From a virus (lineage: Duplodnaviria > Heunggongvirae > Uroviricota > Caudoviricetes), in the IMG/VR virus record IMGVR_UViG_3300038603_000024, positions 1 to 64,000 of that record: a DNA stretch of 64,000 nt, one strand, 5' to 3'. Made by a program: the position numbers and the translations under genes. Under the pieces are notes generated by a model. The model saw only the letters and a list, made by a program, of their open reading frames with translations, ran no database searches and had not been told where the DNA came from. Below are positions 14-50,058 of this stretch, piece by piece (within the stretch, counting starts at the first letter, position 1; every line of letters begins with the position of its first letter).

Positions 14-89
14 TGGACCACCCTCCGGGACTTGAACCCAGATCTGAAGCTTAGGAGGCAACTGCTCTATCCGGTTGAGCTAAGGGTGG
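14..89 (-). tRNA. tRNA-Arg(CCU)-like gene. It has a 7-bp acceptor stem, a 4-bp D-stem, the anticodon loop CUCCUAA, a 5-bp T-stem with a TTCAAGT loop, and 3' TCCA. Two U-U mismatches in the anticodon stem may mean a divergent or att-site-derived copy.
   Basis: I folded the reverse complement of positions 14-89 by hand into a cloverleaf. The anticodon CCT sits in a loop identical to the canonical tRNA-Arg(CCU) loop. The genomic CCA tail is at 14-16 on the complement. Confidence 0.55.
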
Positions 90-187
90 CTTGTCTCTCT
101 TTCCGTACACTCAGCCTAAGATTTGATCCACGGCCAGTCAACAGAAAAAGTGAAACCCGCGAAGATTTCTCAACGCGGGCCTGTTTG

Positions 188-1120
188 TTAGATGCATTTG
201 GCCTTGTATGCGTTAATGGCCTTGGCGTTTAGGCTCTTCGCCACGTCTTTCCATTCTAGCCCCATCCCAGCCAGTTCGTCAGCGCTTTCCTTCTTGACGT
301 CATTGCCGAACCACCTTGCGAAGTCACCGATGCGCTTGAAGTCAAATTCACCGTCACAAGCTTCGGACGCTGCTTGTTGGATACGTGCGTCAGTAATGAA
401 GGCATCGCAGAAGGCCAACACATTGGCAGGGATCTCTACCTTTGCAGTCGCTGCTGCTTTGGTTTTCTTGACCCGGTGAGCCTCACATTTCACCTTGCAA
501 ATCATTTTGGAATAGTCCTCACGACTTGCCCGACGTGGCGACAAAACAAATCCCTCCCCTGGTCCTGAAATATCCCACATCGCCTTAATGTATGGATCTT
601 CCTTGCCAATGCTTTCAGCTAGGTCGGACAGCTCCTGCGCTTTAGCCCCAACATCCTTGTCGTCAAAAAGGTTTAGCTCGAACTCTTTCATAATCGGCAG
701 GACTTCAACCCCATCGACATTAGGAACCATCTCACTGATAACCTCTGGGTCACTGCACACTTCACCAGTGCTTAGGTCTTGGATCGCAAAGACAAAGAAC
801 ATCTTCTTAGCAATGTTGCTTACTGCGTCACTCTTTTGGACACCCGGTCCAGCCCATTCTCCGTAAACGGCACAGTTCATCGGGAAGTCGCTTGGGTTCA
901 GAGTGTCCACAAAGCCTGCAAAGCCAAAGTTGTCGTCTCCAACCTTAATGATCCGGCTGCGAGACTGAGCGTAAAGTCCGCCCTCATCTCGAACAATTGC
1001 AGCGTTAGTCCCGTGCAGTTTGATTTTCGCAATAAAGTTTCGCTCAGTCATTCCGTATCGACGTGCATTTTTCACAAAGTGAGAAAAGCTTTCGACGCTT
1101 GGGTACTTATGAAATTCCAT
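188..1120 (-). CDS. RNA ligase, Rnl2 family (T4 Rnl2-like nucleotidyltransferase).
   Basis: Motif I KLHGTNAAI contains the lysine adenylylation site. YGEWAGPGVQK, EGFVLSP and KVKCEAH line up with Rnl2 motifs III to V. An AGGAGA ribosome-binding site precedes the ATG. Confidence 0.8.
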   Translation of the reverse strand: MEFHKYPSVESFSHFVKNARRYGMTERNFIAKIKLHGTNAAIVRDEGGLYAQSRSRIIKVGDDNFGFAGFVDTLNPSDFPMNCAVYGEWAGPGVQKSDAVSNIAKKMFFVFAIQDLSTGEVCSDPEVISEMVPNVDGVEVLPIMKEFELNLFDDKDVGAKAQELSDLAESIGKEDPYIKAMWDISGPGEGFVLSPRRASREDYSKMICKVKCEAHRVKKTKAAATAKVEIPANVLAFCDAFITDARIQQAASEACDGEFDFKRIGDFARWFGNDVKKESADELAGMGLEWKDVAKSLNAKAINAYKAKCI

Positions 1121-1172
1121 GTCAGTTCTCCTGTTTGTTAACTCTTGTCAGCTTCGGTGTAGGCGCTGGGCG

Positions 1173-1952
1173 TCATACTGAGATAGGCGCTTTAATGACT
1201 GGATGTGGGTCATATCCAATCAGCTCAAAGTCCTCATACTTGAATGCAAAGATGTCGCTGACCTCTGGGTTTGTCCACATTCCCGGAAGGGGCTTAGAGC
1301 AACGTGACAGTTGCAACTCCACTTGCTCAACATGGTTCAAGTAGATATGAGCGTCACCAATCGTGTGAATAAGCTCACCAGGCTTATACCCAGTCACTTG
1401 AGCAATCATCATTTGCAGAAGCGCATATGAGGCGATATTGAATGGAACGCCCAAGAACATATCCGCAGACCGCTGGTACAGTTGCATATGCAGCTTCTCG
1501 CCAATAATGCGAACCTGCCATAGCGTATGGCATGGGGGCAAGGCCATCTCAGGCACATCGGCAGGATTCCATGCGGATACGATTAATCGCCTACTGTTCG
1601 GTGACGAATTAATGTCCTTTACCAGCCGTGCGATTTGGTCAACCCCGCCAAAGTCACGCCATTGCTTGCCGTATACTGGCCCTAGATCTCCATTGTCATC
1701 AGCCCACTCATCCCAGATAGAAACGCTATTGTCTTGCAGGTACTTGATGTTGGTTTCGCCAGACAAGAACCACAGGAGTTCATGGATGATAGACTTTAGA
1801 TGTACGCGCTTGGTGGTGACGATTGGGAATCCATCGCTCAAATCATATCGTGACTGCATCCCGAAGTGGGATATTGTGCCCGTTCCAGTCCTATCATCGC
1901 ATACCGTCCCGTTTTCTAGAATGAACTGCAACGCATCATGATACTGTTTCAT
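1173..1952 (-). CDS. thyA: Thymidylate synthase.
   Basis: The N-terminus DRTGTGT...[27 protein letters not shown] is the canonical ThyA signature. Confidence 0.95.
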
Positions 1953-2146
1953 CCTCTAAACATCTCCTTGTGCGGCTCAAAGTCTCCACACTTGTCACTG
2001 AAGTCACTAAACGCAATCGGCGCGTTGTCTGGGTCATGTGACCACCACTTACGCGCGCCCTCTGCGACATCTGGCGAAAAGTTGCGGGGACATTTTCGGT
2101 TGACGCACTCCGCACTGCAAAACGTCTTGTCCAGATAACAGATCAT
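1949..2146 (-). CDS. Small Cys-rich protein (65 aa), possibly zinc-binding. Translationally coupled to thyA through an ATGA overlap.
   Basis: ORF listed in the track, with several Cys pairs. It overlaps thyA by 4 nt. Confidence 0.4.
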
Positions 2147-2313
2147 TCATTATCCACCCTGTCTAAAATTTCTAGCGCCTGAGATGGGAACACGTTTTCC
2201 ACCCAGTCCCTGTATTCTTCATGCAACTGCTCTGCGATAGCCCCGCTTTCCTTTACGCCCCAATGGTATAGGACTGACTCAAATCTCTCTTGCAGCGTCA
2301 AATCTTTAGCCAT
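2143..2313 (-). CDS. Hypothetical 56-aa protein (MAKDLTLQERFESVLYHWGV...). Coupled to its neighbours by TGATG and TAATG overlaps.
   Basis: Hand-translated. The ORF is below the 60-aa track cutoff and shows start/stop overlaps at both ends. Coordinates are approximate to within a few nt. Confidence 0.35.
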   Translation of the reverse strand: MAKDLTLQERFESVLYHWGVKESGAIAEQLHEEYRDWVENVFPSQALEILDRVDNE

Positions 2314-2450
2314 TAGAACACAGGCTCCCCATCCTTAATCCAGTATTGCAGATTGGCAATCACAACCCCGTTTCGGTCATACACATACGGGGCTTCCTTT
2401 GTGGACAACATTCCTTGCGCGTGCAAATCAGCGCTCATGTCTGGTGGCAT
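2313..2450 (-). CDS. Hypothetical 45-aa protein, starting at the internal Met MPPDMSADL.
   Basis: A GAGGAG ribosome-binding site lies 8 nt upstream of this internal ATG. The longer listed ORF (2313..2543) would overlap the upstream gene. Confidence 0.35.
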   Translation of the reverse strand: MPPDMSADLHAQGMLSTKEAPYVYDRNGVVIANLQYWIKDGEPVF

Positions 2451-2487
2451 TTTATTATCTCCTCTATGTAAGTGACCTAATTCATTT

Positions 2488-2763
2488 TCACTGGAGCAGG
2501 CTAATAACGTAGCCCATGCCAAAGAACATGGTGACTTTAACAACCGTGCTCAAAGTCACCATCCACAGATTGTCATTTTCGTCATCGACACTTTGGATGA
2601 CAAGCAAGGTAATAAGAGTAGTGATCCCCCATGAGTATACAAACTCAAGCTGGTGAAAGTTGAACGCCGGGACAACATGCCAGTTGAATAGCTTCATAAC
2701 TACAAACGCTTTGTACATCGACAGTGGGAACCAAAGCGCAATCGCGGTCAAAAATTTAAGCAT
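2488..2763 (-). CDS. Small integral membrane protein (91 aa, 2-3 TM segments).
   Basis: Hydrophobic segments are visible in the translation. It is the first gene of the leftward operon. Confidence 0.45.
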   Translation of the reverse strand: MLKFLTAIALWFPLSMYKAFVVMKLFNWHVVPAFNFHQLEFVYSWGITTLITLLVIQSVDDENDNLWMVTLSTVVKVTMFFGMGYVISLLQ

Positions 2764-2820
2764 CTTTTCTCTCCTAAGTGTTAGACCTACCCCATTTCTA
2801 GAGTAGGTCTGTGTTGCTGT

Positions 2821-5676
2821 CTAGGTCAAATCTACGATTTCACAAACTCCGGCGCTACAGGCTAGAGTGCTAGACCCTTTGGTCGTGTCTTCGCGCTCGA
2901 ACTCAGCTAGGCCAGACCAGTCAATCGCGCTGGGCATCTTGGCAAGCATGGCCTCGTATTCCTCGCGTGTGCAGTCCTGATATGGTGCCTGCTGGTACGT
3001 GTGATCCGAGTGAGGCAGGAAGCTAATCCCGCTAACCTCATCAAAGTGCTTGTAGACCCAAGCGCCAACTTCAAGCCACTCATGATCTCGCACAGAAACC
3101 GTAACAGACGGCTTATGCTCACACCAGTGACGCTGATATGTCAGCCAGAACTCAAGCTGTTCCAGGGCTGTCATGTCGTTGCGCGTGATAGCACCTTCTG
3201 GCGACTTCATAGGGAAGCTGAAAACCGTAGTGGTATCAGGCTTCATCACGTCAGGCTCATTGGGAATGCCCTGCGACTTCATGAACTCCGTCAGCGGATC
3301 TTTGTTGTCACCTCGAACAGTTCGGATGTAGTAGTCGCTGTGACGCGCGTGGATGCCGCTTGCGGTATCTGTTAGCTGGCTAACCGTTCCCGATGGCTTC
3401 ACACACGTGATAGCTGCCGACTGTGGAATGCCAAGGCGTTCTGCCCATTCCTTGTTGGTGTCGATTGCGGTTTGGCGGAGGGTGTCCAAAACTCGCGGCA
3501 GAGGGGGCTCTGAGTAACCGCACATGCCTACATCATTAAGTACTGAACAATCCATAATACCTGTTAGGCTTACACCAAGAAGGCGCTCCTCTTCAGTATT
3601 CTCACGCCAAATATCGCGCAGATACGGGAAGTGGGTGTAGGTGCTTTGGATGGTGCCAAGGATGGTGGCCAGTTTTACCTTTCGTTTCAGGTCTTCAAGC
3701 GTATCATCTGCACGGCATACTACCTCTGTTAGATTGCAAAAGGAATACGGGCGCAAGATAATTTCACTATTTCCTGTCACAATGCCATTAAATGTCCCGC
3801 GCGACGTTTCAGGCTCAGTGAAGCAATACGTCATCTCATAGCGGTCAAGAGGCTCAATCGAAGCAACGCGAACAAACCGACGCGCATCACGCTGAGGGCT
3901 TTTGCCATTGTGATCAAGTCGGCTCAGGTTAAGACCCATTTCCATGAGGTCGTAAGCGTCAGAGCTGTTAATCAGGATGCGCTTTGACTCTTTGCAGAAG
4001 TACTCCTTCATGCCGCCGCGACCGTCAGGCATTTCACGATAGCCAGCGGGTGCTGCAGCTACAACCTTGGCTCGGACTCCCATAGTGGTAAGCATGAGGC
4101 GAAGGCGGTCCAGAAAATCGTGGTCAACAGACGCCAACTGGAACGAAACGCCATGTGTGCTGCGTAGAATTGTTCCGTCAGCATCAAGAAGCCCAGCCAG
4201 CCAGTTCAAGCGATATTCCAGCGTTGCATCCATAGGCACGAATGACTTGTCCATCATAGGCCCGTGATTCCACACTTTGCGCTCAGTTTTCGAACCGTCT
4301 GGGTAAACTTTGCCAATCAAGCGGTCAATGCATGGATACTTAGGCTCATAGACCCAAGAGCGTGTCATGCCCTTGTTGCCATCCCCGGAGTAGAAGCCTT
4401 GAGAGTAAGCATCAATCTGGGGATCATTGTCACCTTCAACGACAGGCATATCAAACTTTTCAAGCTTGTCGCCAACTTTGATATCGCTGGTCTCGACAAA
4501 ACCCTTCCCGTCAATCACCCAGCGGTGATTCCAGGTACAATCAAGATATGATCCATCAGTCAATGTGACGCGAACAAGGTCAGCTTCACCGGCAGCATAT
4601 GGAACTACAGTGGCCCAGTTTTCACCGTTCCAGATTTCAGTTTCCTCGCCAACAGTTTCAACGATTGGCTTGTATCCGCTGGACGTCAGGATTTCGGTCT
4701 CAGGCGAGCAACAGCATGGATTTGTCCCGAAGTCCCAATCAGTATCACGGCGACCATTCTTAGCAGCCTGATTAACGCTTGCTTGCCGATTGAAGATGCC
4801 GCGCTCACCGGACTTGCTTTCCATCAGGGCCAGCCATTCACGCATAAAGCTTTCCGCGTCGGGCTTGTCGGTGAATGCAACGGAGTTGTTGGCAAGAGCG
4901 CGCTGAGGATCAGTCACCCACCACTGGCCTGACTTGGCATGGCGCATACGGTCATCACTGAGGTTGCTGAGGCTAATCATAGCAGAGCGACGAACGCCAC
5001 CCACAACCACAATCTCGCCAATCTTACACATCAGGTCGTGACACTCGATGGATGTCAGCTTGCGGCCCTGTGCTTTCTTGAATACGCCAATGGTGAAGTT
5101 AAACAGATCAACCAGCGGATCAGGGCCAGAAGCGCGACCGCCAAATGTCTTGAGCTTGGCACCTGCGGGGCGGACTGCAGACACGTCCCACGTGGGGGTA
5201 TGACCGGACCACAAGTGTTCTAGCAGTTCACGATATGATTTGGCCCATCCCTCCTTACTGTCTTCAACGACAATAACCGGCACATCACCATCCATCTTCT
5301 CAGGCACTTCTGGAAGCTTGTTTACATACTGCCGCTCAACACTGAAGCCCACGCCAGTGCCACACAGCAGGATAAACATTGCCTCATCAAACGAGCGCGG
5401 ATGATCTACTGGCAGGTATGAGCAGTTGTAGATGCAAGTATTGTCTCGATCAGCAGCAGGACCAGCGGTCATCAGTGCGCGCATCGACGGGGCAGTTTCC
5501 AGACCACGAATAGCTTGGCTCAGTTCTTCAACAGTCTCGGCATCAGCGCCAGACGGAACGACGATATTCTCAATATATCGGTCTACAGTTTCATCCCAAG
5601 TTTCTCGCCGGTTTTCTTCTGGCAGCCATCGTGCATAGCGGCTTACCGCGATAAACTTCTGATAGTCATTCATCAA
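2821..5676 (-). CDS. Ribonucleotide reductase catalytic subunit, probably class II cobalamin-dependent, interrupted by an intein.
   Basis: Removing the intein restores the active-site motif N-P-C-S-E. A C-terminal CSAGVC redox pair is present. No NrdB gene is in the window. A GAAGGA ribosome-binding site precedes the start. Confidence 0.8.
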   Translation of the reverse strand: MMNDYQKFIAVSRYARWLPEENRRETWDETVDRYIENIVVPSGADAETVEELSQAIRGLETAPSMRALMTAGPAADRDNTCIYNCSYLPVDHPRSFDEAMFILLCGTGVGFSVERQYVNKLPEVPEKMDGDVPVIVVEDSKEGWAKSYRELLEHLWSGHTPTWDVSAVRPAGAKLKTFGGRASGPDPLVDLFNFTIGVFKKAQGRKLTSIECHDLMCKIGEIVVVGGVRRSAMISLSNLSDDRMRHAKSGQWWVTDPQRALANNSVAFTDKPDAESFMREWLALMESKSGERGIFNRQASVNQAAKNGRRDTDWDFGTNPCCCSPETEILTSSGYKPIVETVGEETEIWNGENWATVVPYAAGEADLVRVTLTDGSYLDCTWNHRWVIDGKGFVETSDIKVGDKLEKFDMPVVEGDNDPQIDAYSQGFYSGDGNKGMTRSWVYEPKYPCIDRLIGKVYPDGSKTERKVWNHGPMMDKSFVPMDATLEYRLNWLAGLLDADGTILRSTHGVSFQLASVDHDFLDRLRLMLTTMGVRAKVVAAAPAGYREMPDGRGGMKEYFCKESKRILINSSDAYDLMEMGLNLSRLDHNGKSPQRDARRFVRVASIEPLDRYEMTYCFTEPETSRGTFNGIVTGNSEIILRPYSFCNLTEVVCRADDTLEDLKRKVKLATILGTIQSTYTHFPYLRDIWRENTEEERLLGVSLTGIMDCSVLNDVGMCGYSEPPLPRVLDTLRQTAIDTNKEWAERLGIPQSAAITCVKPSGTVSQLTDTASGIHARHSDYYIRTVRGDNKDPLTEFMKSQGIPNEPDVMKPDTTTVFSFPMKSPEGAITRNDMTALEQLEFWLTYQRHWCEHKPSVTVSVRDHEWLEVGAWVYKHFDEVSGISFLPHSDHTYQQAPYQDCTREEYEAMLAKMPSAIDWSGLAEFEREDTTKGSSTLACSAGVCEIVDLT
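3769..4713 (-). mobile_element. Intein (about 315 aa) with a LAGLIDADG homing-endonuclease domain, inserted directly after the catalytic Cys of the reductase.
   Basis: The element starts C-C-S-P-E-T-E-I-L, which fits Hint block A. LAGLIDADG blocks are YSQGFYSGDGNKG and LNWLAGLLDADGTI. It ends IVTGN, followed by a +1 Ser. Confidence 0.75.
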
Positions 5677-5772
5677 AGTTTCAATTCCTTCTCTATGATG
5701 TTCAAGATGGCCTTACGCGCCTGAACTTCGGGCACGACATAGTGTCGCCGTTTCAATTTCTGCGCCATCACT

Positions 5773-6249
5773 TCACAGCGCCACGAATGTTTTGAACATA
5801 AGCCACTTAGCACAGTGGTTATATGCGTCAATGCCAATGCCGTGATCTGCGTTTACAAGGAATGCGCGCTTATGATCAATCTTGACATCATCCAAAGCGA
5901 CCCAGAGCATGTTGTCTGTTTTGTTGCGGTCTAGCCACTCATTGATTGCAGTCAGCCTGTCTACATCTGGGTAGACCGTATGCATATCCTCATGTAGGTC
6001 ATCACCAAATCCAGCGGCTACAAATTGATTGATCAGCCCTGGAATCCTGCCGTGTTGATGGAGATGCCTATTGTGAGTCGTGTTGAACACAATCTTAGCG
6101 CCCGACGCATCAATGATTTTCCGCAAAACAGCGACACACCTATCGTCTAGCTCCTGCTCCCAGGAGGCCATCTTGTTGAACAGAAATGACGTGTATGGAA
6201 TCATAGGTCCATCAATGTCTAGGAATATTACTTTATCCGGCATCTTCAC
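5773..6249 (-). CDS. HAD-superfamily hydrolase, a putative nucleotide or polynucleotide phosphatase.
   Basis: The N-terminal motif VIFLDIDGP fits the DxDG nucleophile motif. It is ATGA-coupled to the dut stop. Confidence 0.65.
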   Translation of the reverse strand: MKMPDKVIFLDIDGPMIPYTSFLFNKMASWEQELDDRCVAVLRKIIDASGAKIVFNTTHNRHLHQHGRIPGLINQFVAAGFGDDLHEDMHTVYPDVDRLTAINEWLDRNKTDNMLWVALDDVKIDHKRAFLVNADHGIGIDAYNHCAKWLMFKTFVAL

Positions 6250-6680
6250 TCTCCCGTTGACCCGAAACCGCCGGTCCCGCGCTCTGTTTGTTTTTCAATC
6301 TCTTCAACCTCAACAATGTTGGTTTCGACATTCTTGACCAGCATAGCTTGTGCAATCCGCTCGCCTACTTTGGGGAAGTACAAAAAGATCCCGGCTGTGC
6401 CATCATATGTCAGCTTAACTTTGACCTCGCCAAGGTAATCCGCATCAATCACCCCAACCGCATTAGCAAGACGCATATCGCCCTTAAACCCATGCCCGCT
6501 GCGGCTGTAGATCTTCACATGGTACCCGTCCGGGATATCCATGATAAGACCGGTTCCGTATGTCGCGGTATTCCCACGGATTTCACGCGACACTGCCACC
6601 AGATCAAAGCAAGCCGCGCCATCAGTCTGGAACGCAGGAATCTCCGCGTCTTCATGAATGCGCTTAATTCGCAGATCCAT
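6246..6680 (-). CDS. dut: dUTP diphosphatase.
   Basis: dUTPase motifs are present: VIDADYLGEV, GERIAQ and C-terminal RGTGGFGSTG. I took the start at MDLRIKRI, which has a GGAG ribosome-binding site; the listed ORF extends further 5'. Confidence 0.9.
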   Translation of the reverse strand: MDLRIKRIHEDAEIPAFQTDGAACFDLVAVSREIRGNTATYGTGLIMDIPDGYHVKIYSRSGHGFKGDMRLANAVGVIDADYLGEVKVKLTYDGTAGIFLYFPKVGERIAQAMLVKNVETNIVEVEEIEKQTERGTGGFGSTGE

Positions 6681-6904
6681 ATATAGTACTCCTTTATCAG
6701 GGTGAACGCCAAATGTAGCCGAAAACAGCCAAAACGGCAAGTCATCACGCCGCGTAAAACGCACTATTAGACGTGACAAAATGTGACCTGATTGACTCTC
6801 CTCGTGCCATCACCACTACCACCGTAAATAGCGCCGGTCAACGCAAAACCGCTATACTTCCGGTTTATGTCGTGCTATCCATATAGCAGAGCAATGGAGG
6901 TCAC

Positions 6905-12106: not shown

Positions 12107-12572
12107 ATTTCCTCTCCTTATCCTGCTATCAACATATACGTGTAGCGCATGGTGTCAAGGGGGGATGGTGGGGTCGAGTGGTATAAGAAAATGTTATATG
12201 CCCTAGCCAGAGCTATAAGCTTAACTTATTTGACTTCCGGTTCACTATGCTATAAAAAGAAAAAAGGCCCGCAGCGCTACAACGCTCGGAAGGTAAAGCG
12301 CCAGGATTACAGCCTACGTTGGGATTTGACCTCCAATATGGCGGATTTTGGTTGACCAGCCTAGAAAATGGTCAGGCAGGCGTCAGGAAACCGGCGGGGC
12401 GAGAGCCAAAGGTAAACTAGTACTGGGCGAAAGCTGGGCGTGGTCTGCCCCCCGTGGATAGGATAGGTAGGTATCTCCACGGCAGGAAAAGGGATCAGTA
12501 TACCCAGAGTAAGGCTTGACCAATCCTCTGGCATGGTGCAGTTTGCATGAAGTAAAGAATAGGAGAGACCGA

Positions 12573-13871
12573 ATGACTAATGGTGAAATTTACGTCGGTG
12601 ATGAGCTGGTGTCCCATACCGGACGCCGTAAGCTGAGCGATATCGTTGCAGAGTATGAAGAGCGGCTTTCTAGGATTGATGATGAGTTTGAGGAATTCGA
12701 GCGGGCGCAGACAGCACTGAAAGCGGCTTGTTGTGTGTCGGGCGTGTGGCCCTACGGAAACCTTGATGTGGGCCACGTGGGTAAGCGTCAGATGAAGGAA
12801 TTTCTTCTGAGGTCCGCTTGGCGTTGCGCATATAAGGAGTACAATCTTGAGTACCTTGCAAGCGCATCCGATAAGAGTAAAATTGAGCGCATGATGGAAG
12901 ATCCGCCAGAGTTCAATATGATGAATCTCTATGAGTGGTTTGGTGATCTTGCACAGAACCCTCGTGCGTCAATCTTGCGCGGATTAGCTGAGGTGTTCGC
13001 GGATCTTGACCCGGCATTCAAATCCCATGAAAAAATGAAAGTCGGCGTCAAGGGGCTTCCCAAGCGCGTCATCCTGTCCAATGTCGGAGATTACGGGTGG
13101 GGCCGTGATAGGCTCTTGTCAATCTTGAACTCTATTGCGGCAATCAAGGGAGAGAAGCTGGCGGACTATAAGGAAACAAATGACATTTTGGATAATGGCG
13201 ACTGTTTGCGGGATACGCGAGGCGTTTGGCTGAAGCGTTTTGCAAACGGCAATGGGCACTTGTTCTTTTCACCTGATACGCTGAAGGCTGTGAACTTGGG
13301 GCTGGCGGAATATTATGGGGATGTCCTGCCTGATTGCCCTGAGGCGCGCCCTGCCAAGAAGGCCAGCACCGAAGTAGCTAAGGATCTGCAATATTTCCCA
13401 ACGCCTAAGGCTGTGATTGATAGCGTTATGAATAACGCCTATTACATGAAAGGGAAGAAGGTTCTTGAGCCATCTTGCGGCTGTGGTCGTTTTCTTGAGG
13501 CGATTGCAGTAGAGGGTGGCGATGTGTTTGGCATTGAGTACGACTCGGGCCGAGCGGCTGAGGCGCGCGCGAAAGGCTTTAAAGTTCTTCAAGCTAACTT
13601 CTTGGAGGTCGCCCCGTCTCCCGACTTTGATATGGTTGTTATGAACCCGCCCTTTTATGGCCGTCACTATGCCAAGCATGTTCGTCACGCCCTTGAGTTT
13701 CTGAAGCCCGATGGAACGCTTTGGTCTGTGCTTCCGTCTACAGCTCGATATGATCATGGGGAACTTGATGACTTGAAACCATACTGGTACGATCTTCCTG
13801 TCGGGTCGTTCCGGGAAAGCGGCACTAATATCAGCACGTCGGTTGCAAGGATCCGCAAGAAGCAAACATAA
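12573..13871 (+). CDS. Orphan N6-adenine DNA methyltransferase with a roughly 280-aa N-terminal domain of unknown function.
   Basis: Motifs QYFPTP, VLEPSCGCGRFL (SAM motif I) and MNPPF (motif IV). I took the start at MTNGEIYV, which has an AGGAGAG ribosome-binding site. Confidence 0.8.
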   Translation: MTNGEIYVGDELVSHTGRRKLSDIVAEYEERLSRIDDEFEEFERAQTALKAACCVSGVWPYGNLDVGHVGKRQMKEFLLRSAWRCAYKEYNLEYLASASDKSKIERMMEDPPEFNMMNLYEWFGDLAQNPRASILRGLAEVFADLDPAFKSHEKMKVGVKGLPKRVILSNVGDYGWGRDRLLSILNSIAAIKGEKLADYKETNDILDNGDCLRDTRGVWLKRFANGNGHLFFSPDTLKAVNLGLAEYYGDVLPDCPEARPAKKASTEVAKDLQYFPTPKAVIDSVMNNAYYMKGKKVLEPSCGCGRFLEAIAVEGGDVFGIEYDSGRAAEARAKGFKVLQANFLEVAPSPDFDMVVMNPPFYGRHYAKHVRHALEFLKPDGTLWSVLPSTARYDHGELDDLKPYWYDLPVGSFRESGTNISTSVARIRKKQT

Positions 13872-35458: not shown

Positions 35459-38398
35459 TTAGCTCCTAGTTAGGCAGACTGCCGCAGCCTCTGCAACTTC
35501 ACGGTAAGCCCGCGCCTTTTCGTCAATCTGGTTCAGCTCGTCCAGTAATACCCTTGACTCTTCAGAAATACCGCTGGAAACATCTTTTGAAAAAGTTATT
35601 TCTGTAATCTTATTTCCAGCGTGCATACCTCTATATCCCTCATATCCTTGCGGAATATCAGTAGCTGGCTTCCAAAGTTCAAGGGGGTACAAGCCTTCTC
35701 TTGGCTCATCGAAAACAGGAACATCTGTTCCGGATGGAGACCTTCCCCATTTACCAGATACGTCATTAAATGTCAGGAGACTAGCTTTCCCATTCTTGAT
35801 AATAACCCTTGCCCCTTTTGCCCCAAGACCCTGTAAGCCTGCGGCGCTCAAGACCGCCGCATTTTCCTCAACATAAACTGTCTTTGAGCTTCTTTTTTTC
35901 TCACCAAAATCACCCTCATGACCGGCATCTTGCCTTGCAGCCTTGTCTCTCTGAGTGGTTCCGTCTCCAAACAATTTATATTTAGACCCTTTTGCTGTAG
36001 TGTATGTTGCTGCAATTTTATTTTTACCAACCGTAATGTCATTCTCAATCTGGTCAACGATCCTTTGAAGATAGTCGATATCCTCGCGCGCGCTAGCCTG
36101 AAGATCCGCATTGCCCCTACTTATTTCAGCCGCCCTTTGTGCCGCGCCAACGTCCGCGTATGGGTCTGAGGCAACGTCAGCAGATCTTGCAGCCAACTCT
36201 GATGCAACTTGCTTTTGCGCCGCAGGACCAGTTAGAGCCTCGCTAATAGGATCACTTGGGCTTGATAGTATCGATTCTTTCCTGGTGTCAATGCCACGTG
36301 GTATTTCAACCAGATCAGGATTCCTCTCAATCGAGCGAATATCAGCATCTGACATGTTGTGCGCGATAAGATATCTATTTTCACCAATCTTAACTACTTT
36401 AGAACCAGTAGGGGCAGATGTTTTTTCTTTAACGAAATCGTCCCTTGCTGGCGCGAAACTATCAACAATTGCCTCGACGTCACCGCCTTTTTCTTGAAGT
36501 TCTTCGAGAGCAATTTTAAAGTCCTCATCAGACAAGAATTCGATTTGATTTCTCTCAATGTATCCCCTTAGATCTTTTTCAATTTCAATATTAGAAAGGT
36601 TTCCGTGAACAAACTCGTATTCATCAGGGTCTATAAACAGCCTATCTTTGCGTTTGAAGTCTGCCAGATAACCACTTTTGGGCTCCAAGTCCACGTTATA
36701 CAAAAGGTTTTCTGCGTCTCTTATGATCGCACTTACTTTTTCTCGACTATTTAACCAATTACTATCGCCCTCAACATCCCTCTTAATCAGGTCGATGAAG
36801 CCATCTGGATCTAAATAGAATTCTGACCTAGACGTACCTGTGGCTTCTATGATTCCCGGAAACTCTTTTTCAAACTCGTTGGCGACAAGGTTGTCAAAGT
36901 CTTTTCTTCCACGCCTAGAAAAGAGGCCCGGCGCTGACCTTGGGGTAATTCCTTTAGATCGCAGCTCATCTGCCGCCCTACCTTCTGGGTGGACCTGCAA
37001 TGTCGCCCCGTCAACTTCAGGGCTCCTCCTAATAAATTCAACAAGCGGCTTCACAAAACGTGAATCGTCTTTTTGAGCCTGCTCTAAGCTATCTAAAATT
37101 GCGGCGCTTAGATCAATTCCTTCACTCTCTACGCCTGTTAGCCTTGAAGAATTTACAAAATCATCCGCCCTGCCAAGCTCCGAGAACTCAACTGGCTTTC
37201 CTGACGGCGTCCTAATGAAGTCGCCATCAGATGTAATCCTTACTGCAAATCCATCACGAATATGAACAACAGTTCCGCCGTTTTTATTCGCAAAATCATT
37301 AGCTTTTTGCTGTGAGTCAAACGCTAGTGGGGTTCCACTATCATCTCCTGCGAGATATGACGGTCTAGAGATGTATCCCACCCTATCTTGAACTGGCTCC
37401 TGGAATTCGACTCCAGAGGACCGGAATATAGGCGCTTGACTGCGCACATCGCGACCATCAAAAAATCTTGTTACATCAACAGACTGATCTGTGGCGAATT
37501 GCCTGAATGAAATTTCAGCGGCGTCTTTTTCTAGCTTTGGGTCAAGTCGCGCTCTTTGCGCCCTGCGACCGAGAACTCCAGCCACCGCGCCAACGCCGCC
37601 ACCGAACAACAGGCCAAATCCAACATTGGTAAGGGCATCGGCCATTGTGTAATCAAGCTGCTGCTGCTTGGATAGCCCGTAGTAGATAGGCTCCACAAGC
37701 GCTTGCCCTACAGCGCCTTCTGTTGCACCGATAGCAACCCTGCCACCTACCTGACCCAATCGGGATACAGCCCGCGCCTTCAATGCTGGACCGGCAACAG
37801 GAATGAATGTGGTTGCGACCTCAAGAGGGTCTGTTGCCATAGCCGCAAGTCCCGCGCCGAACTTCAGAAGACCCGCGCCAAGTCCTTGCGGGCTTTTCTC
37901 AATCAGAGCATTTCTGATAATTTCCGCACGTTTGTTGTCTGCAAGAATGCGAGCCTGTTCATTCGTCATTGGACGATCAAACGTCAGGCCAAGCTCCCCG
38001 TATTCCTCAGTTAGCGCTTCAGGTGGTTGCAGCCTGCCTTGCTCAATCGCATCTTGTGTGAGCGCGTTGATTTGTGTTTGCTTTTCACTTTGCAGCGCTT
38101 GGATCTCAGCCAGTGCGTCATCGCGCTCCTGGCCGTCTTGCAGAAATTCAACATTTGCTTCAAGCGCACGAATGCGACGTTGCCGCTCAAATTCAGCTTC
38201 CCTGACGCGGTTCTTTTCTTCCTCAGTGAATGCGTCAGTAGTATTGCCAAGCTCCCAGCTTTTAGCCGCAAGCTCGCCCATGGTTGGGGTTTCATAGACT
38301 GCCCGCAGACCTGTGCCTAGTGAGACAGTAAGGTCTGGGCCACTGACTTCACGCAAAAGCCGGTGATTTGCAAGTGGCCTGTTTAGTGGTTCTGCCAT
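35459..38398 (-). CDS. Large internal virion protein with coiled coils and a Gly-rich hydrophobic segment (979 aa).
   Basis: Long coiled-coil stretches and a GxxxG-rich membrane-like segment, as seen in ejection proteins and tape-measure-like proteins. Confidence 0.4.
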   Translation of the reverse strand: MAEPLNRPLANHRLLREVSGPDLTVSLGTGLRAVYETPTMGELAAKSWELGNTTDAFTEEEKNRVREAEFERQRRIRALEANVEFLQDGQERDDALAEIQALQSEKQTQINALTQDAIEQGRLQPPEALTEEYGELGLTFDRPMTNEQARILADNKRAEIIRNALIEKSPQGLGAGLLKFGAGLAAMATDPLEVATTFIPVAGPALKARAVSRLGQVGGRVAIGATEGAVGQALVEPIYYGLSKQQQLDYTMADALTNVGFGLLFGGGVGAVAGVLGRRAQRARLDPKLEKDAAEISFRQFATDQSVDVTRFFDGRDVRSQAPIFRSSGVEFQEPVQDRVGYISRPSYLAGDDSGTPLAFDSQQKANDFANKNGGTVVHIRDGFAVRITSDGDFIRTPSGKPVEFSELGRADDFVNSSRLTGVESEGIDLSAAILDSLEQAQKDDSRFVKPLVEFIRRSPEVDGATLQVHPEGRAADELRSKGITPRSAPGLFSRRGRKDFDNLVANEFEKEFPGIIEATGTSRSEFYLDPDGFIDLIKRDVEGDSNWLNSREKVSAIIRDAENLLYNVDLEPKSGYLADFKRKDRLFIDPDEYEFVHGNLSNIEIEKDLRGYIERNQIEFLSDEDFKIALEELQEKGGDVEAIVDSFAPARDDFVKEKTSAPTGSKVVKIGENRYLIAHNMSDADIRSIERNPDLVEIPRGIDTRKESILSSPSDPISEALTGPAAQKQVASELAARSADVASDPYADVGAAQRAAEISRGNADLQASAREDIDYLQRIVDQIENDITVGKNKIAATYTTAKGSKYKLFGDGTTQRDKAARQDAGHEGDFGEKKRSSKTVYVEENAAVLSAAGLQGLGAKGARVIIKNGKASLLTFNDVSGKWGRSPSGTDVPVFDEPREGLYPLELWKPATDIPQGYEGYRGMHAGNKITEITFSKDVSSGISEESRVLLDELNQIDEKARAYREVAEAAAVCLTRS

Positions 38399-49104: not shown

Positions 49105-49509
49105 TTACCTCCACGGCGTGTCATTAGTGAAGAAGCAGTTGCCGCCGATACATCCGTCAAACTCATACTCACTTTCCCAGAATTGAGGCTTTCCCTCAGT
49201 CCGAAAGTGCGTTGACGTGATCTCCAGCCCATTGCCTGACAGCGCGTCCTCTGCCACGGCAACCGCTGCGTCCCATGCCCATTCGTCAGGTGCGCCATTA
49301 GTCTTTGGCTTGGGCGCAGTCTTGTCAACGATAGAGGCCCAAGGGAACTGATTATCCGCAAACACAACCCCGCAGGCTGTATCCGCATAGCGCTCATCCT
49401 CAACCCGGTTCTGAACAACAGCGACAACAGCCGCCATTGCGTCAGGGGTTTGGTAGTGTTCGCGTGACTCGAAGAAAGCCGCCAAGGCCAAACAGGTAAG
49501 AGGTGTCAT
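49105..49509 (-). CDS. Cell-wall hydrolase, SleB-like (Hydrolase_2 fold).
   Basis: AMAAVVAVVQNRVEDERYADTACGVVFADNQF matches the SleB-family core. Confidence 0.5.
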   Translation of the reverse strand: MTPLTCLALAAFFESREHYQTPDAMAAVVAVVQNRVEDERYADTACGVVFADNQFPWASIVDKTAPKPKTNGAPDEWAWDAAVAVAEDALSGNGLEITSTHFRTEGKPQFWESEYEFDGCIGGNCFFTNDTPWR

Positions 49510-50003
49510 GCTCGCTCGCTTTCTCTGTGTGCAGTGCCGCCGAAGTTCATCAGATTGTAATAGTCGCGCAAGTACTGCTCGTTGTCAGTTTTCGTGATGT
49601 AGCAACCAAACCTAGCGCCACTCCGAAAGAAACGTTTATCTACCGTAGTGGTTTCTGACCACTTATAGCCAAACACCTCAAACTTATCCTCAAGGTACAT
49701 TTGCACGGCGTTCATTCGCTGCTGACCGTCAATAAGAAGGTTGTTGTACTTGCTGCCGTATAGGCGATTGAAGGTGTAGGTGCCTACTGGCAATCCAAGC
49801 CAGAGGCTTTCAATCAGTCTGACGTTTTGATCTTTTGTCCATACAAGCCCGCGCTGCCAGTCCGGAAGAAAATACCCCATGACGCTTCGCAGTCCCTGAG
49901 TATTTTCCTCTTCTTGATCCTCATAATGCATCATTGCCTCGCCAATACATGCATCAAATCTATGACCTAGATCCATTGTTTTAGGCATCACGCGCTTGCT
50001 CAT
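49506..50003 (-). CDS. DUF262 / ParB-like (DGQQR motif) domain protein.
   Basis: NLLIDGQQRMNA is the conserved DUF262 motif. Lies downstream of the large terminase. Confidence 0.55.
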   Translation of the reverse strand: MSKRVMPKTMDLGHRFDACIGEAMMHYEDQEEENTQGLRSVMGYFLPDWQRGLVWTKDQNVRLIESLWLGLPVGTYTFNRLYGSKYNNLLIDGQQRMNAVQMYLEDKFEVFGYKWSETTTVDKRFFRSGARFGCYITKTDNEQYLRDYYNLMNFGGTAHRESERA

Positions 50004-50058
50004 CTCATCTCTCCTTTTCCTGCATCCAACATACATCCTCAAGTGGTGGCGTCAACAC

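What the first reader, a model, noticed from the sequence alone, without database searches (positions are those of the whole stretch)
14..6249. Possible RNA-repair module: tRNA-Arg(CCU)-like gene with a mispaired anticodon stem next to an Rnl2-family RNA ligase and a HAD phosphatase
The tRNA-like element has a canonical acceptor, D and T arms and an Arg(CCU) anticodon loop. Its anticodon stem, however, carries two adjacent U-U mismatches: the sequence is GCTTC where GCAAC would pair. The gene 100 bp away encodes an Rnl2-type ligase, which seals nicks in duplex RNA. The same leftward operon ends with a DxDG HAD hydrolase. The combination resembles phage countermeasures to anticodon nucleases, such as T4 Pnkp/Rnl against PrrC, or ribotoxin-resistant decoy tRNAs. 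Alternatively the tRNA is the prophage attL tRNA copy, with the mismatches marking the recombination crossover. No kinase is present, so any repair pathway would be non-canonical.
Basis: partly seen in the sequence, partly recalled or inferred. Interest (0 to 1): 0.6.

Follow-up and report, generated by a model that had tools for sequence, protein, structure and literature searches.

The report
Phage tRNA-Arg with mispaired anticodon stem
A roughly 79 kb marine phage carries its own arginine tRNA with two adjacent U-U mispairs in the anticodon stem, plus an Rnl2-type RNA ligase and a small phosphatase, but these are three separable accessory genes, not a fixed RNA-repair module.

Summary
Window 14-89 (-) is a tRNA-Arg(CCU) with U28.U42 and U29.U41. 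ORF 188-1120 is an Rnl2-family RNA ligase. ORF 5773-6249 is a HAD_SAK_2 phosphatase.

The prophage attL idea is refuted. The tRNA lies inside a ~79 kb phage genome that was assembled many times with different break points, and no integrase was found.

The "module" reading is only partly supported:
- A sister phage keeps an identical tRNA and the HAD gene, but has ThyX where [small ORFs + ThyA + Rnl2] sit here.
- Rnl2 homologues rarely have a tRNA nearby (14 of 80 loci) or this HAD (1 of 80 loci).

The tRNA belongs to a marine-phage tRNA-Arg family with an unusual C1-G72 acceptor stem. In 11 distinct relatives, all five anticodon-stem pairs covary and stay paired. The only two unpaired cells in that alignment are this tRNA's. 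Its anticodon tracks phage codon usage (AGG is 15.7% of Arg codons), so it is most likely a working decoder.

The mispairs fall where the Toprim defence nucleases OLD and PARIS AriB cut tRNA stems. Those cuts leave 3'-OH/5'-P ends that Rnl2 can seal without a kinase. This is an attractive hypothesis, but it was not tested here.

The parts
14..89 (-). Phage-encoded tRNA-Arg(CCU), 76 nt with encoded CCA. It has a C1-G72 acceptor stem and U73 discriminator. The anticodon stem carries tandem U.U at 28:42 (window 61/48) and 29:41 (window 60/47).
   Evidence: It is identical in L001-L003 and in the sister phage L101/L102. Family alignment A3.
154..181 (-). GC-rich hairpin followed by a U-rich tract, immediately after the ligase stop codon. 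This is a likely intrinsic terminator. A second long hairpin and a possible TTGACT-N17-TAGGCT promoter lie between it and the tRNA.
   Evidence: RNA fold of 90-190 (-): -39.5 kcal/mol, z -5.1. The consensus scan did not call it because the loop exceeds 8 nt. It is conserved in the sister phage.
188..1120 (-). Rnl2-family ATP-dependent RNA ligase, 310 aa. Motif I is K34-L-H-G-T-N, motif III is E88, motif IV is E189-G, motif V is K209/K211. A C-terminal domain is present with conserved R246.
188..2784 (-). Swappable cassette made of small ORFs (2488-2763, 2143-2313, 1949-2146), ThyA and Rnl2. In the sister phage it is replaced by a single ThyX gene.
   Evidence: In the blastn of L001 against L101, homology ends 37 nt after the RNR stop codon and resumes exactly at the ligase stop codon.
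1173..1952 (-). Thymidylate synthase ThyA.
   Evidence: PF00303, 3.2e-116.
2821..5676 (-). Class II (B12-dependent) ribonucleotide reductase interrupted by a LAGLIDADG intein.
   Evidence: PF21995, PF14528 and PF02867. It is 74% identical at the DNA level to the Puniceispirillum phage HMO-2011 RNR.
5773..6249 (-). Stand-alone capless HAD phosphatase of the HAD_SAK_2 family, 156-158 aa. D11, D13, T57/T58, R98 and D120/D121 are invariant or nearly invariant.
6246..6779 (-). dUTPase, the first gene of the leftward operon. The gene call in L001 gives 144 aa, which corresponds to window 6246-6680.
   Evidence: PF00692.

Best explanation
This is the early, nucleotide-metabolism region of a free (not integrated) phage genome of about 79 kb. 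The phage is probably marine and probably infects an alphaproteobacterium. The region carries three accessory genes that were acquired independently.

1. The tRNA-Arg(CCU) is a working decoder. It comes from a marine-phage tRNA-Arg lineage and sits in its own position behind a terminator. It supplies AGG decoding for a phage whose late genes are rich in AGG. Its tandem U.U pairs are a derived feature that has been retained and that weakens the anticodon stem by about 4-5 kcal/mol.

2. The Rnl2-family ligase travels in a cassette with ThyA. It most likely seals 3'-OH/5'-P nicks in duplex RNA.

3. The HAD is a capless phosphatase whose substrate is unknown.

Shown here: the identity of each part, the phage context, the cassette swap, the exceptional mispairs within the tRNA family, and the match between anticodon and codon usage. 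Inferred: expression and aminoacylation of the tRNA, the ligase and phosphatase substrates, and why the mispairs are kept.
For: Phage context. The exact ligase is on at least 22 contigs of up to 79 kb, with phage genes on both sides of the tRNA and different contig break points.

Cassette swap. The sister phage (HAD 94% identical) has the same dUTPase-HAD-RNR synteny, ThyX in place of the cassette, and a tRNA identical at 76 of 76 positions. The surrounding 1,096 nt are 95.3% identical. By hand calculation, zero changes in 76 nt has P of about 0.02 at the flank rate.

tRNA family. Forty-two IMG/VR loci and Roseobacter phage CRP-13 carry tRNA-Arg(UCU) with the same CCACCCU/AGGGUGG acceptor stem. 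In alignment A3, 249 of 251 pair cells are standard, all 5 anticodon-stem pairs covary, and the 2 exceptions are this tRNA's.

Codon usage. AGG is 162 of 1,034 Arg codons (9.85 per 1,000) against 73 AGA here. The UCU-bearing relatives use AGA at 12.3 and AGG at 7.1 per 1,000.

No conserved linkage. tRNAs lie near 14 of 80 Rnl2 loci and the HAD near 1 of 80. The HAD sits in five unrelated contexts.

Against: - Two central mispairs cost about 17 bits of tRNA-model score relative to CRP-13 (53.2 vs 70.2).
- The nearest-neighbour model even prefers a slipped 4-bp stem with an 8-nt loop, so full decoding competence is not assured.
- Only two phage lineages carry this tRNA, so selection on the mispairs is not demonstrated.
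- The host, and therefore its AGG usage, is unknown.
- One relative of the HAD (L100) does sit in a cREC-HAD-RNA ligase cluster, and the closest ligase relative lies 1.5 kb from an 8-tRNA cluster. Some functional link to RNA or tRNA repair therefore remains plausible.
Confidence: 0.6

Rival explanations
1. This is a coordinated countermeasure against anticodon-stem nucleases. The U.U pairs make the phage tRNA refractory to Toprim nucleases (OLD or PARIS AriB type), which cut at 28/29 and 40/41. Rnl2 reseals the 3'-OH/5'-P stem nicks in host tRNAs without needing a kinase. The HAD clears any 3'-phosphates.
For: - P2-OLD cuts after C28 and C40 at paired CNG motifs. Phage tRNA-Thr variants resist it by altering the motif and also losing a stem pair. 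A single nick is repaired by T4 Rnl1 or Rnl2 without end healing (PMC12445682).
- AriB nicks 40/41 at a 5'-CA-3' step and leaves a 3'-OH (PMC12409363).
- In the related UCU family, 34 of 42 loci have C28-N-G30 paired with C40-N-G42, and most have C40-A41. This tRNA has U28-U29-G30 and C40-U41-U42, so it lacks both (read).
- The mispairs are unique in a family that otherwise covaries strictly, and they are retained in two lineages.
- SAK-type HADs and Rnl2 are listed as a predicted phage RNA-repair kit (PMC7824862).
- Other phage tRNAs for known targets also show U.U in the stem: L174 Lys(UUU) and L228 Thr(UGU).
Against: - No nuclease, host or cleavage data exist for this phage.
- tRNA-Arg(CCU) is not a reported main target of OLD or AriB.
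- The specificity rules come from E. coli systems.
- The sister phage keeps the tRNA without Rnl2 at this locus.
- There is no conserved neighbourhood among the three genes.
- U.U is also the commonest tolerated internal mismatch in general.
Confidence: 0.2
2. The tRNA gene is decaying or only marginally functional. The two U.U mispairs are slightly deleterious mutations that hitch-hiked to fixation.
For: - The model score is about 17 bits lower than that of relatives.
- The isolated anticodon arm is predicted to be barely stable, and a slipped register is marginally favoured.
- Only two closely related lineages carry the tRNA.
Against: - All 16 other helix pairs, A20, C35, the 7-nt loop and the CCA are intact.
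- There are zero changes in 76 nt while the flanks diverge by 5%.
- The anticodon changed in step with the phage's AGG-over-AGA preference.
- The 27:43 pair was changed on both sides and stayed paired.
Confidence: 0.12
3. No RNA repair is involved. The HAD is a (deoxy)nucleotide phosphatase that works with dUTPase, RNR and thymidylate synthase. The ligase acts in nucleic-acid metabolism, for example at RNA-DNA junctions.
For: - The HAD gene abuts dUTPase and precedes RNR in both sister phages.
- In L099 it lies between the primase-helicase and the DNA polymerase.
- The ligase is in a cassette with ThyA.
Against: - The Pfam family is defined from RNA-repair proteins.
- The protein is capless, like HADs that act on macromolecules.
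- L100 links the same HAD family to cREC and an RNA ligase.
- The ligase has all the Rnl2 motifs and the Rnl2-type C-terminal domain.
Confidence: 0.15
4. The tRNA is the attL copy at a prophage end, and the mismatches mark the recombination crossover.
For: Only the position of the tRNA at the very edge of the window supports this.
Against: - The sequence continues beyond the tRNA into at least 10 kb of small phage ORFs.
- Contigs of 78.1-79.7 kb are broken at different points.
- Any prophage would lie on the tRNA's 5' side, the opposite of normal 3'-end integration.
- No integrase was found.
- No cellular genome in 185,579 species representatives has a tRNA with this anticodon arm.
Confidence: 0.02

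Closest known systems
T4 RNA ligase 2 (Rnl2; PDB 2HVQ) and roseophage 'RNA ligase 2' genes (DSS3P8, vB_RpoS-V10, DSS3_VP1)
   Same: The size and two-domain layout match. Motifs I, Ia, III, IV and V and the C-terminal-domain arginine are conserved. There is a direct sequence match to T4 Rnl2, and identity to the roseophage proteins is about 40%.
   Different: It is only distantly related to T4 Rnl2: 47.9 bits against the equivalog cut-off of 197. T4 D120 and K209 are not conserved (read). The in vivo role is unknown even for T4 Rnl2 (my own knowledge).
T4 Pnkp/Rnl1 repair of PrrC-cleaved tRNA-Lys
   Same: A phage-encoded RNA ligase is present together with a HAD-fold phosphatase.
   Different: There is no polynucleotide kinase. 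The ligase is Rnl2-type, not Rnl1-type. The HAD belongs to a different family and is not fused to a kinase. The genes are 4.7 kb apart and their linkage is not conserved.
Nuclease-resistant phage tRNAs (T5 tRNA-Lys, Thr and Asn against PARIS AriB; phage tRNA-Thr against P2-OLD; anticodon-loop variants in eLife 2023, PMC10264068)
   Same: The phage tRNA differs from its relatives exactly in the part of the anticodon stem that these nucleases read and cut. Loss of stem pairing is one of the published resistance determinants.
   Different: The isoacceptor here is Arg(CCU). The change is a tandem internal U.U rather than a terminal pair loss or pair swaps. No nuclease is known and no resistance has been shown.
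Marine podophage tRNA-Arg(UCU) (Roseobacter phage CRP-13, HMO-2011-type contigs)
   Same: The unusual C1-G72 acceptor stem CCACCCU, the D arm and the encoded CCA are the same. The gene sits in the early region near thymidylate synthase. Identity is about 81%.
   Different: The anticodon is CCU, not UCU. The variable loop is 4 nt and the discriminator is U73. The anticodon stem is mispaired, whereas all relatives are fully paired.
Stand-alone 'Swiss-army-knife' HAD phosphatases of phages (Pfam PF18143; Iyer et al. 2021, PMC7824862)
   Same: It is a member of the Pfam family, it is stand-alone, and it is phage-borne with an RNA ligase in the same genome.
   Different: Here it is embedded in a dUTPase-RNR operon. 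Its biochemical activity has not been tested for any member that I could find.

Membership tests
Rnl2-family RNA ligase (PF09414 / TIGR02307) | Covalent nucleotidyltransferase motif I, KxHGxN, with the catalytic lysine | tested here: met
   K34-L-H-G-T-N aligns with T4 Rnl2 K35-I-H-G-T-N. G37 and N39 are invariant and K34 is at least 90% conserved across 39 homologues.
Rnl2-family RNA ligase (PF09414 / TIGR02307) | Motifs III, IV and V (GE(F/W)AGPG, EG(Y/F)V, KxK) | tested here: met
   E88, E189-G190 and K209/K211 are aligned to the T4 motifs and are invariant or nearly invariant.
Rnl2-family RNA ligase (PF09414 / TIGR02307) | Rnl2-type C-terminal domain and a family-level score | tested here: inconclusive
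   The alignment to T4 Rnl2 runs to residue 285 and includes R246, which aligns with T4 R266. Pfam scores 49.5 bits, above the cut-off of 27. TIGR02307 scores 47.9 bits, well below the equivalog cut-off of 197.
Rnl2-family RNA ligase (PF09414 / TIGR02307) | Seals 3'-OH/5'-P nicks in duplex RNA | not testable with these tools
   This needs a biochemical assay.
HAD_SAK_2 phosphatase (PF18143) | Pfam score above the gathering cut-off | tested here: met
   60.6 bits against a cut-off of 27.5.
HAD_SAK_2 phosphatase (PF18143) | HAD catalytic motifs I-IV and the Rossmannoid fold | tested here: met
HAD_SAK_2 phosphatase (PF18143) | Genomic association with RNA-repair genes | tested here: inconclusive
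   L100 has a cREC-HAD-RNA ligase cluster. Four other contexts do not. Only 1 of 80 Rnl2 loci has a weak hit.
HAD_SAK_2 phosphatase (PF18143) | Polynucleotide 3'-phosphatase activity | not testable with these tools
   This needs a biochemical assay.
Canonical bacterial-type elongator tRNA-Arg | Cloverleaf that scores above the tRNA model threshold; A20 and C35 identity nucleotides | tested here: met
   53.2 bits against a gathering score of 29. The D loop AACCGGAUA and the anticodon CCU were read. The roles as identity elements come from established E. coli ArgRS work (my own knowledge).
Canonical bacterial-type elongator tRNA-Arg | Five-base-pair anticodon stem | tested here: not met
   There are three standard pairs plus tandem U.U. 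All 11 distinct family relatives have five pairs.
T4-type Pnkp/Rnl1 tRNA repair system | Polynucleotide 5'-kinase | tested here: not met
   Pfam scans of 38 window ORFs found no kinase domain. Neither did the precomputed Pfam annotation of the 10 kb beyond the tRNA. About 4-5 kb of the genome was not seen.
T4-type Pnkp/Rnl1 tRNA repair system | Rnl1-family ligase (PF09511) | tested here: not met
   The ligase is PF09414, i.e. Rnl2-type.
Nuclease-evading phage tRNA | Sequence or structure change at the nuclease's recognition or cleavage site, relative to susceptible homologues | tested here: inconclusive
   The changes at 28, 41 and 42 remove the CNG/CNG and C40-A41 features that are present in most family relatives (searches compared). 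The relevant nuclease is hypothetical.
Nuclease-evading phage tRNA | Demonstrated resistance and rescue of infection | not testable with these tools
   This needs an experiment.
Prophage attL tRNA | Host DNA beyond the tRNA, and an integrase | tested here: not met
   Phage ORFs lie on both sides, the contigs are permuted, and no integrase was found.

The most novel reading that the evidence does not exclude
The tandem U28.U42/U29.U41 is a selected design that partly melts the anticodon stem. It makes a phage tRNA-Arg invisible to anticodon-stem-cutting Toprim defence nucleases (OLD or PARIS AriB-like). In the Rnl2-bearing lineage it is paired with a kinase-independent route in which a stand-alone Rnl2 directly reseals the 3'-OH/5'-P stem nicks in host tRNAs. 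If so, this would be a natural role for phage Rnl2, whose in vivo role is unknown to my knowledge.
Probability: 0.2. Interest if true: 0.7.

Novelty: new variant of a known kind. Interest (0 to 1): 0.4.

Why it matters
Phage tRNAs, Rnl2 ligases and SAK-type HADs are all known, so the gene set itself is ordinary.

The notable point is a naturally fixed tRNA with two central U.U mispairs. It sits in a family where that stem otherwise covaries perfectly, and the mispairs fall at the positions that newly described defence nucleases cut.

If the mispairs confer resistance, three things would follow:
- Evasion through the anticodon stem would extend beyond the E. coli T5 and P2 model cases to marine phages.
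- Evasion would extend to an arginine isoacceptor.
- There would be a testable natural substrate (stem nicks with 3'-OH/5'-P ends) for stand-alone phage Rnl2 enzymes.

If the mispairs do not confer resistance, the tRNA is still a useful case of how much anticodon-stem mispairing a working tRNA can tolerate.

Tried and rejected
1. The exact tRNA, and then its 17- to 20-nt anticodon arm, were searched in GTDB species genomes, IMG/VR and JGI metagenomes. Only chance matches turned up and none lay in a tRNA.

2. Two degenerate tRNA patterns found nothing. One pattern was mis-spaced by me and wasted a scan.

3. Intermediate relatives were sought through the ligase. Nothing lies between 100% and 55% identity. 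The 55% relative (L015) has a different tRNA set, and L016 has none.

4. The HAD gene, not the ligase, led to the informative sister phage.

5. Exact-protein look-ups of two window proteins failed.

6. HAD fold searches did not discriminate polynucleotide phosphatases from other capless HADs. PDB sequence search and PADLOC gave nothing.

7. The Burroughs & Aravind 2016 paper is not held in the library.

8. Clustering the neighbours of 83 Rnl2 loci found no conserved partner. The most frequent were an SNF2 helicase (16 loci), a calcineurin-like phosphoesterase (13), Rnl1 (9) and a mini-HAD-like ORF (8).

9. A +1-frameshifting reading of the slipped 8-nt-loop fold was considered and set aside. 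It rests only on a 0.8 kcal/mol difference in the nearest-neighbour model and ignores tertiary structure.
Full report
**1. Observation**

ARAGORN finds one tRNA in the window, tRNA-Arg(CCT) at 14-89 on the minus strand. Rfam's tRNA model gives 53.2 bits (E 1.7e-9) over the whole model. It flags exactly two non-standard pairs, both in the anticodon stem.

Read from the sequence, the RNA is:

CCACCCU UA GCUC AACCGGAUA GAGC A GUUGC CUCCUAA GCUUC AGAU CUGGG UUCAAGU CCCGG AGGGUGG U CCA

So G27-C43, U28.U42, U29.U41, G30-C40 and C31-G39. All other helices are paired. A20 and C35 are present and the CCA is encoded.

The neighbouring ORF (188-1120, minus strand, 98 nt away) is an Rnl2-family RNA ligase:
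- Pfam RNA_ligase, 7e-13.
- phrog_548 'RNA ligase', 1e-47.
- T4 Rnl2 (2HVQ), 5.9e-11 over residues 3-266, and no DNA-ligase match.
- TIGR02307 'Rnl2 family', 47.9 bits, which is far below the equivalog cut-off.

The catalytic motifs (K34-LHGTN, E88, E189-G, K209/K211) and the C-terminal-domain arginine are conserved across 39 homologues.

ORF 5773-6249 is a PF18143 HAD_SAK_2 protein (2.7e-16) with invariant D11-x-D13-G, R98 and D120-D121. Between the ligase and the HAD lie ThyA, three small ORFs and a class II RNR with a LAGLIDADG intein. dUTPase lies upstream. The HAD is the second gene of the leftward operon, not the last.

**2. Context: a free phage genome, not a prophage end**

The exact ligase protein is on at least 22 metagenomic contigs from ENA, JGI and Logan, many of them 78-79.7 kb. 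In L001 the sequence continues past the tRNA into 10 kb of small phage ORFs. The contigs are broken at different places: L001 is internal, while L003 ends 263 nt upstream of ThyA. This is what a circular or terminally redundant genome gives.

The window otherwise encodes portal, capsid, terminase (with an intein), primase, helicase, SSB, Rad52, methyltransferases and a muramidase. It has no integrase and no kinase.

The tRNA's 3' end points away from the operon, which is the wrong polarity for an attL tRNA. No tRNA with this anticodon arm exists in 185,579 species genomes, IMG/VR or JGI metagenomes. The attL alternative is rejected.

**3. The three genes are separable**

A sister phage (L101/L102; HAD 94% identical) has the same HTH / dUTPase-HAD-RNR(intein) arrangement. 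A single ThyX gene then replaces the block [small ORFs + ThyA + Rnl2].

In the blastn comparison, homology stops 37 nt after the RNR stop codon and resumes exactly at the ligase stop codon. The ligase therefore rides in a 2.6 kb cassette (window 188-2784).

The terminator-like hairpin, the spacer and the tRNA belong to the conserved backbone. The tRNA is identical at 76 of 76 positions, including both U.U pairs. The surrounding 1,096 nt block is 95.3% identical. By hand calculation, P is about 0.02 for zero changes at the flank rate.

Linkage across the wider families is weak:
- Of 80 IMG/VR loci with homologues of the ligase, 14 have any tRNA within about 10 kb.
- The HAD family is found near the ligase in 0 of 80 loci by tblastn and in 1 of 80 (weak hit) by profile search.
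- No kinase or other conserved partner emerges from neighbour clustering.

The HAD occurs in unrelated contexts:
- with small ORFs and a PRA-PH protein (L098);
- between primase-helicase and DNA polymerase (L099);
- between portal and terminase (L270);
- and, once, in a cREC-HAD-RNA ligase cluster (L100).

**4. The tRNA's family and the meaning of the mispairs**

The best GenBank phage match is an unannotated tRNA-Arg(UCU) in Roseobacter phage CRP-13 (80.8% identity). It has the same unusual C1-G72 acceptor stem CCACCCU/AGGGUGG.

A pattern search found 42 more such genes in marine IMG/VR contigs, giving 11 distinct sequences. In the 12-sequence alignment A3:
- 249 of 251 pair cells are standard pairs.
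- All five anticodon-stem pairs show changes on both sides.
- The only two unpaired cells are the window tRNA's 28:42 and 29:41.

The same tRNA changed 27:43 on both sides and stayed paired. The mispairs are therefore a lineage-specific departure in a family under strict pairing selection.

They cost about 17 bits of model score (53.2 against 70.2 for CRP-13) and about 4.6 kcal/mol relative to a GCAAC version. A slipped 4-bp stem with an 8-nt loop is nominally 0.8 kcal/mol better.

Background rates from the loci fetched:
- Of 99 distinct tRNA-Arg(CCU) genes in viral contigs, 86 have no stem mismatch, 12 have one (mostly at 27:43) and 1 has two at the stem top.
- Of 463 distinct well-formed tRNAs, 16 have an internal mismatch, and most of those are U.U.
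- Only two have a tandem internal mismatch: this one and a tRNA-Lys(UUU) in L174.

**5. Evidence that the tRNA is a decoder**

In 40 window ORFs, AGG is 162 of 1,034 Arg codons (9.85 per 1,000), twice AGA (73). It is concentrated in virion genes, for example 31 of 74 Arg codons in ORF 35459-38398.

The relatives that carry the UCU anticodon (GC 43%) prefer AGA: 12.3 against 7.1 per 1,000. The anticodon thus tracks the phage's own codon usage. This is expected if the tRNA is used in translation.

Host usage is unknown. The best cellular hits for the ligase and the HAD are from Paracoccus, a high-GC group in which AGG is rare (my own knowledge).

**6. Mechanistic reading of the mispairs and the ligase (inference)**

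Recent work shows that Toprim defence nucleases cut the anticodon stem:
- P2-OLD cuts after C28 and C40 at paired CNG motifs and leaves 5'-P/3'-OH ends.
- A single such nick is 'seamlessly repaired' by T4 Rnl1 or Rnl2 without end healing.
- Phage tRNA-Thr variants resist by altering the motif and also losing a stem base pair (PMC12445682).
- PARIS AriB nicks between 40 and 41 at a CA step and leaves a 3'-OH (PMC12409363).

In the UCU family, 34 of 42 loci have C28-N-G30 with C40-N-G42, and most have C40-A41. The window tRNA has U28-U29-G30 and C40-U41-U42, so it has neither motif and an unpaired centre (read).

T4 Rnl2 is a sealer of duplex-RNA nicks with 3'-OH/5'-P ends (PMC3884662 abstract). 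That would explain why no kinase is needed.

This fits well, but it is untested. The isoacceptor is not a known main target, the host and its defences are unknown, and the sister phage keeps the tRNA without the ligase at this locus.

**7. The HAD**

The fold does not settle the substrate. Iyer et al. (PMC7824862) list stand-alone SAK-type HADs with Rnl1/Rnl2 and tRNAs as a predicted phage RNA-repair kit, so the combination is already described as a kind.

**8. Verdict**

The parts are real and correctly named. The prophage reading is wrong. The 'module' is a juxtaposition of separable accessory genes.

The one unusual element is the conserved tandem U.U in an otherwise well-behaved phage tRNA, placed where stem-cutting nucleases act. 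I rate the finding as a new variant of a known kind, with interest 0.4. I give about 0.2 probability to the reading that combines nuclease evasion with kinase-free repair.

Noticed in passing
L001 13661-14026 (about 2.6 kb beyond the tRNA, outside the window): A 121-aa protein consisting only of a release-factor peptidyl-tRNA hydrolase domain (PF00472). Its best NCBIfam match is PrfH at 63 bits, below the cut-off. PrfH-like factors are linked to ribosome rescue and RNA repair in the literature. This is another translation-maintenance gene in the same phage.
   Followed up: partly
window 188-2784 vs L101 12876-13700: Sister phages exchange a ThyA-containing cassette (with Rnl2 and three small ORFs) for a ThyX gene at exactly the same junctions. 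This is a clean example of non-orthologous thymidylate synthase replacement.
   Followed up: yes
window 2821-5676 and 50059-52908: There are two LAGLIDADG inteins in one phage. One is in the class II RNR. The other is in a 949-aa protein with a weak terminase large-subunit N-terminal match.
   Followed up: no
L174 8451-8522 (IMGVR_UViG_3300032122_000001): A phage with 28 tRNAs has a tRNA-Lys(UUU) whose anticodon stem CCUUC/GUUGG carries tandem U.U at 29:41 and 30:40. This is the only other tandem internal mismatch among the 463 tRNAs surveyed. tRNA-Lys(UUU) is the main target of PrrC and PARIS AriB.
   Followed up: partly
L228 (IMG/VR marine contig carrying the C1-type tRNA-Arg(UCU)): Its tRNA-Thr(UGU) has a single U28.U42 mismatch (GUUGA/UCAUC). 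Thr(UGU) is the preferred substrate of P2-OLD and a target of AriB. L170 has a tRNA-Arg(CCU) with a single U28.U42.
   Followed up: no
window 90-153 (-): A long, very stable hairpin lies between the terminator and the tRNA (whole 101-nt leader -39.5 kcal/mol, z -5.1). It overlaps a possible TTGACT-N17-TAGGCT promoter. Several substitutions in the sister phage fall inside it.
   Followed up: no
L015 978-4318: The closest ligase relative outside this phage (55% identity) lies 1.5 kb upstream of a cluster of 8 tRNA genes.
   Followed up: partly
L100 6133-9370: A 120 kb phage contig has cREC_REC, HAD_SAK_2 (53% identical to the window HAD) and a short 212-aa PF09414 RNA ligase within 3.2 kb. This looks like a real RNA-repair cluster.
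   Followed up: partly
window 49506-50042 and 12516-13871: A small GmrSD_N/DUF262-like protein hits the PADLOC NsnA and PD-T4-2 models. A DUF4942 + methyltransferase protein hits 'mad2'. These may be phage-borne defence or anti-defence genes.
   Followed up: no
window 14-89 (-): The tRNA has C1-G72 and discriminator U73, while its relatives have G73 or A73. Both features are unusual for bacterial-type tRNA-Arg (my own knowledge). The C1-G72 stem is shared by the whole marine-phage family.
   Followed up: partly
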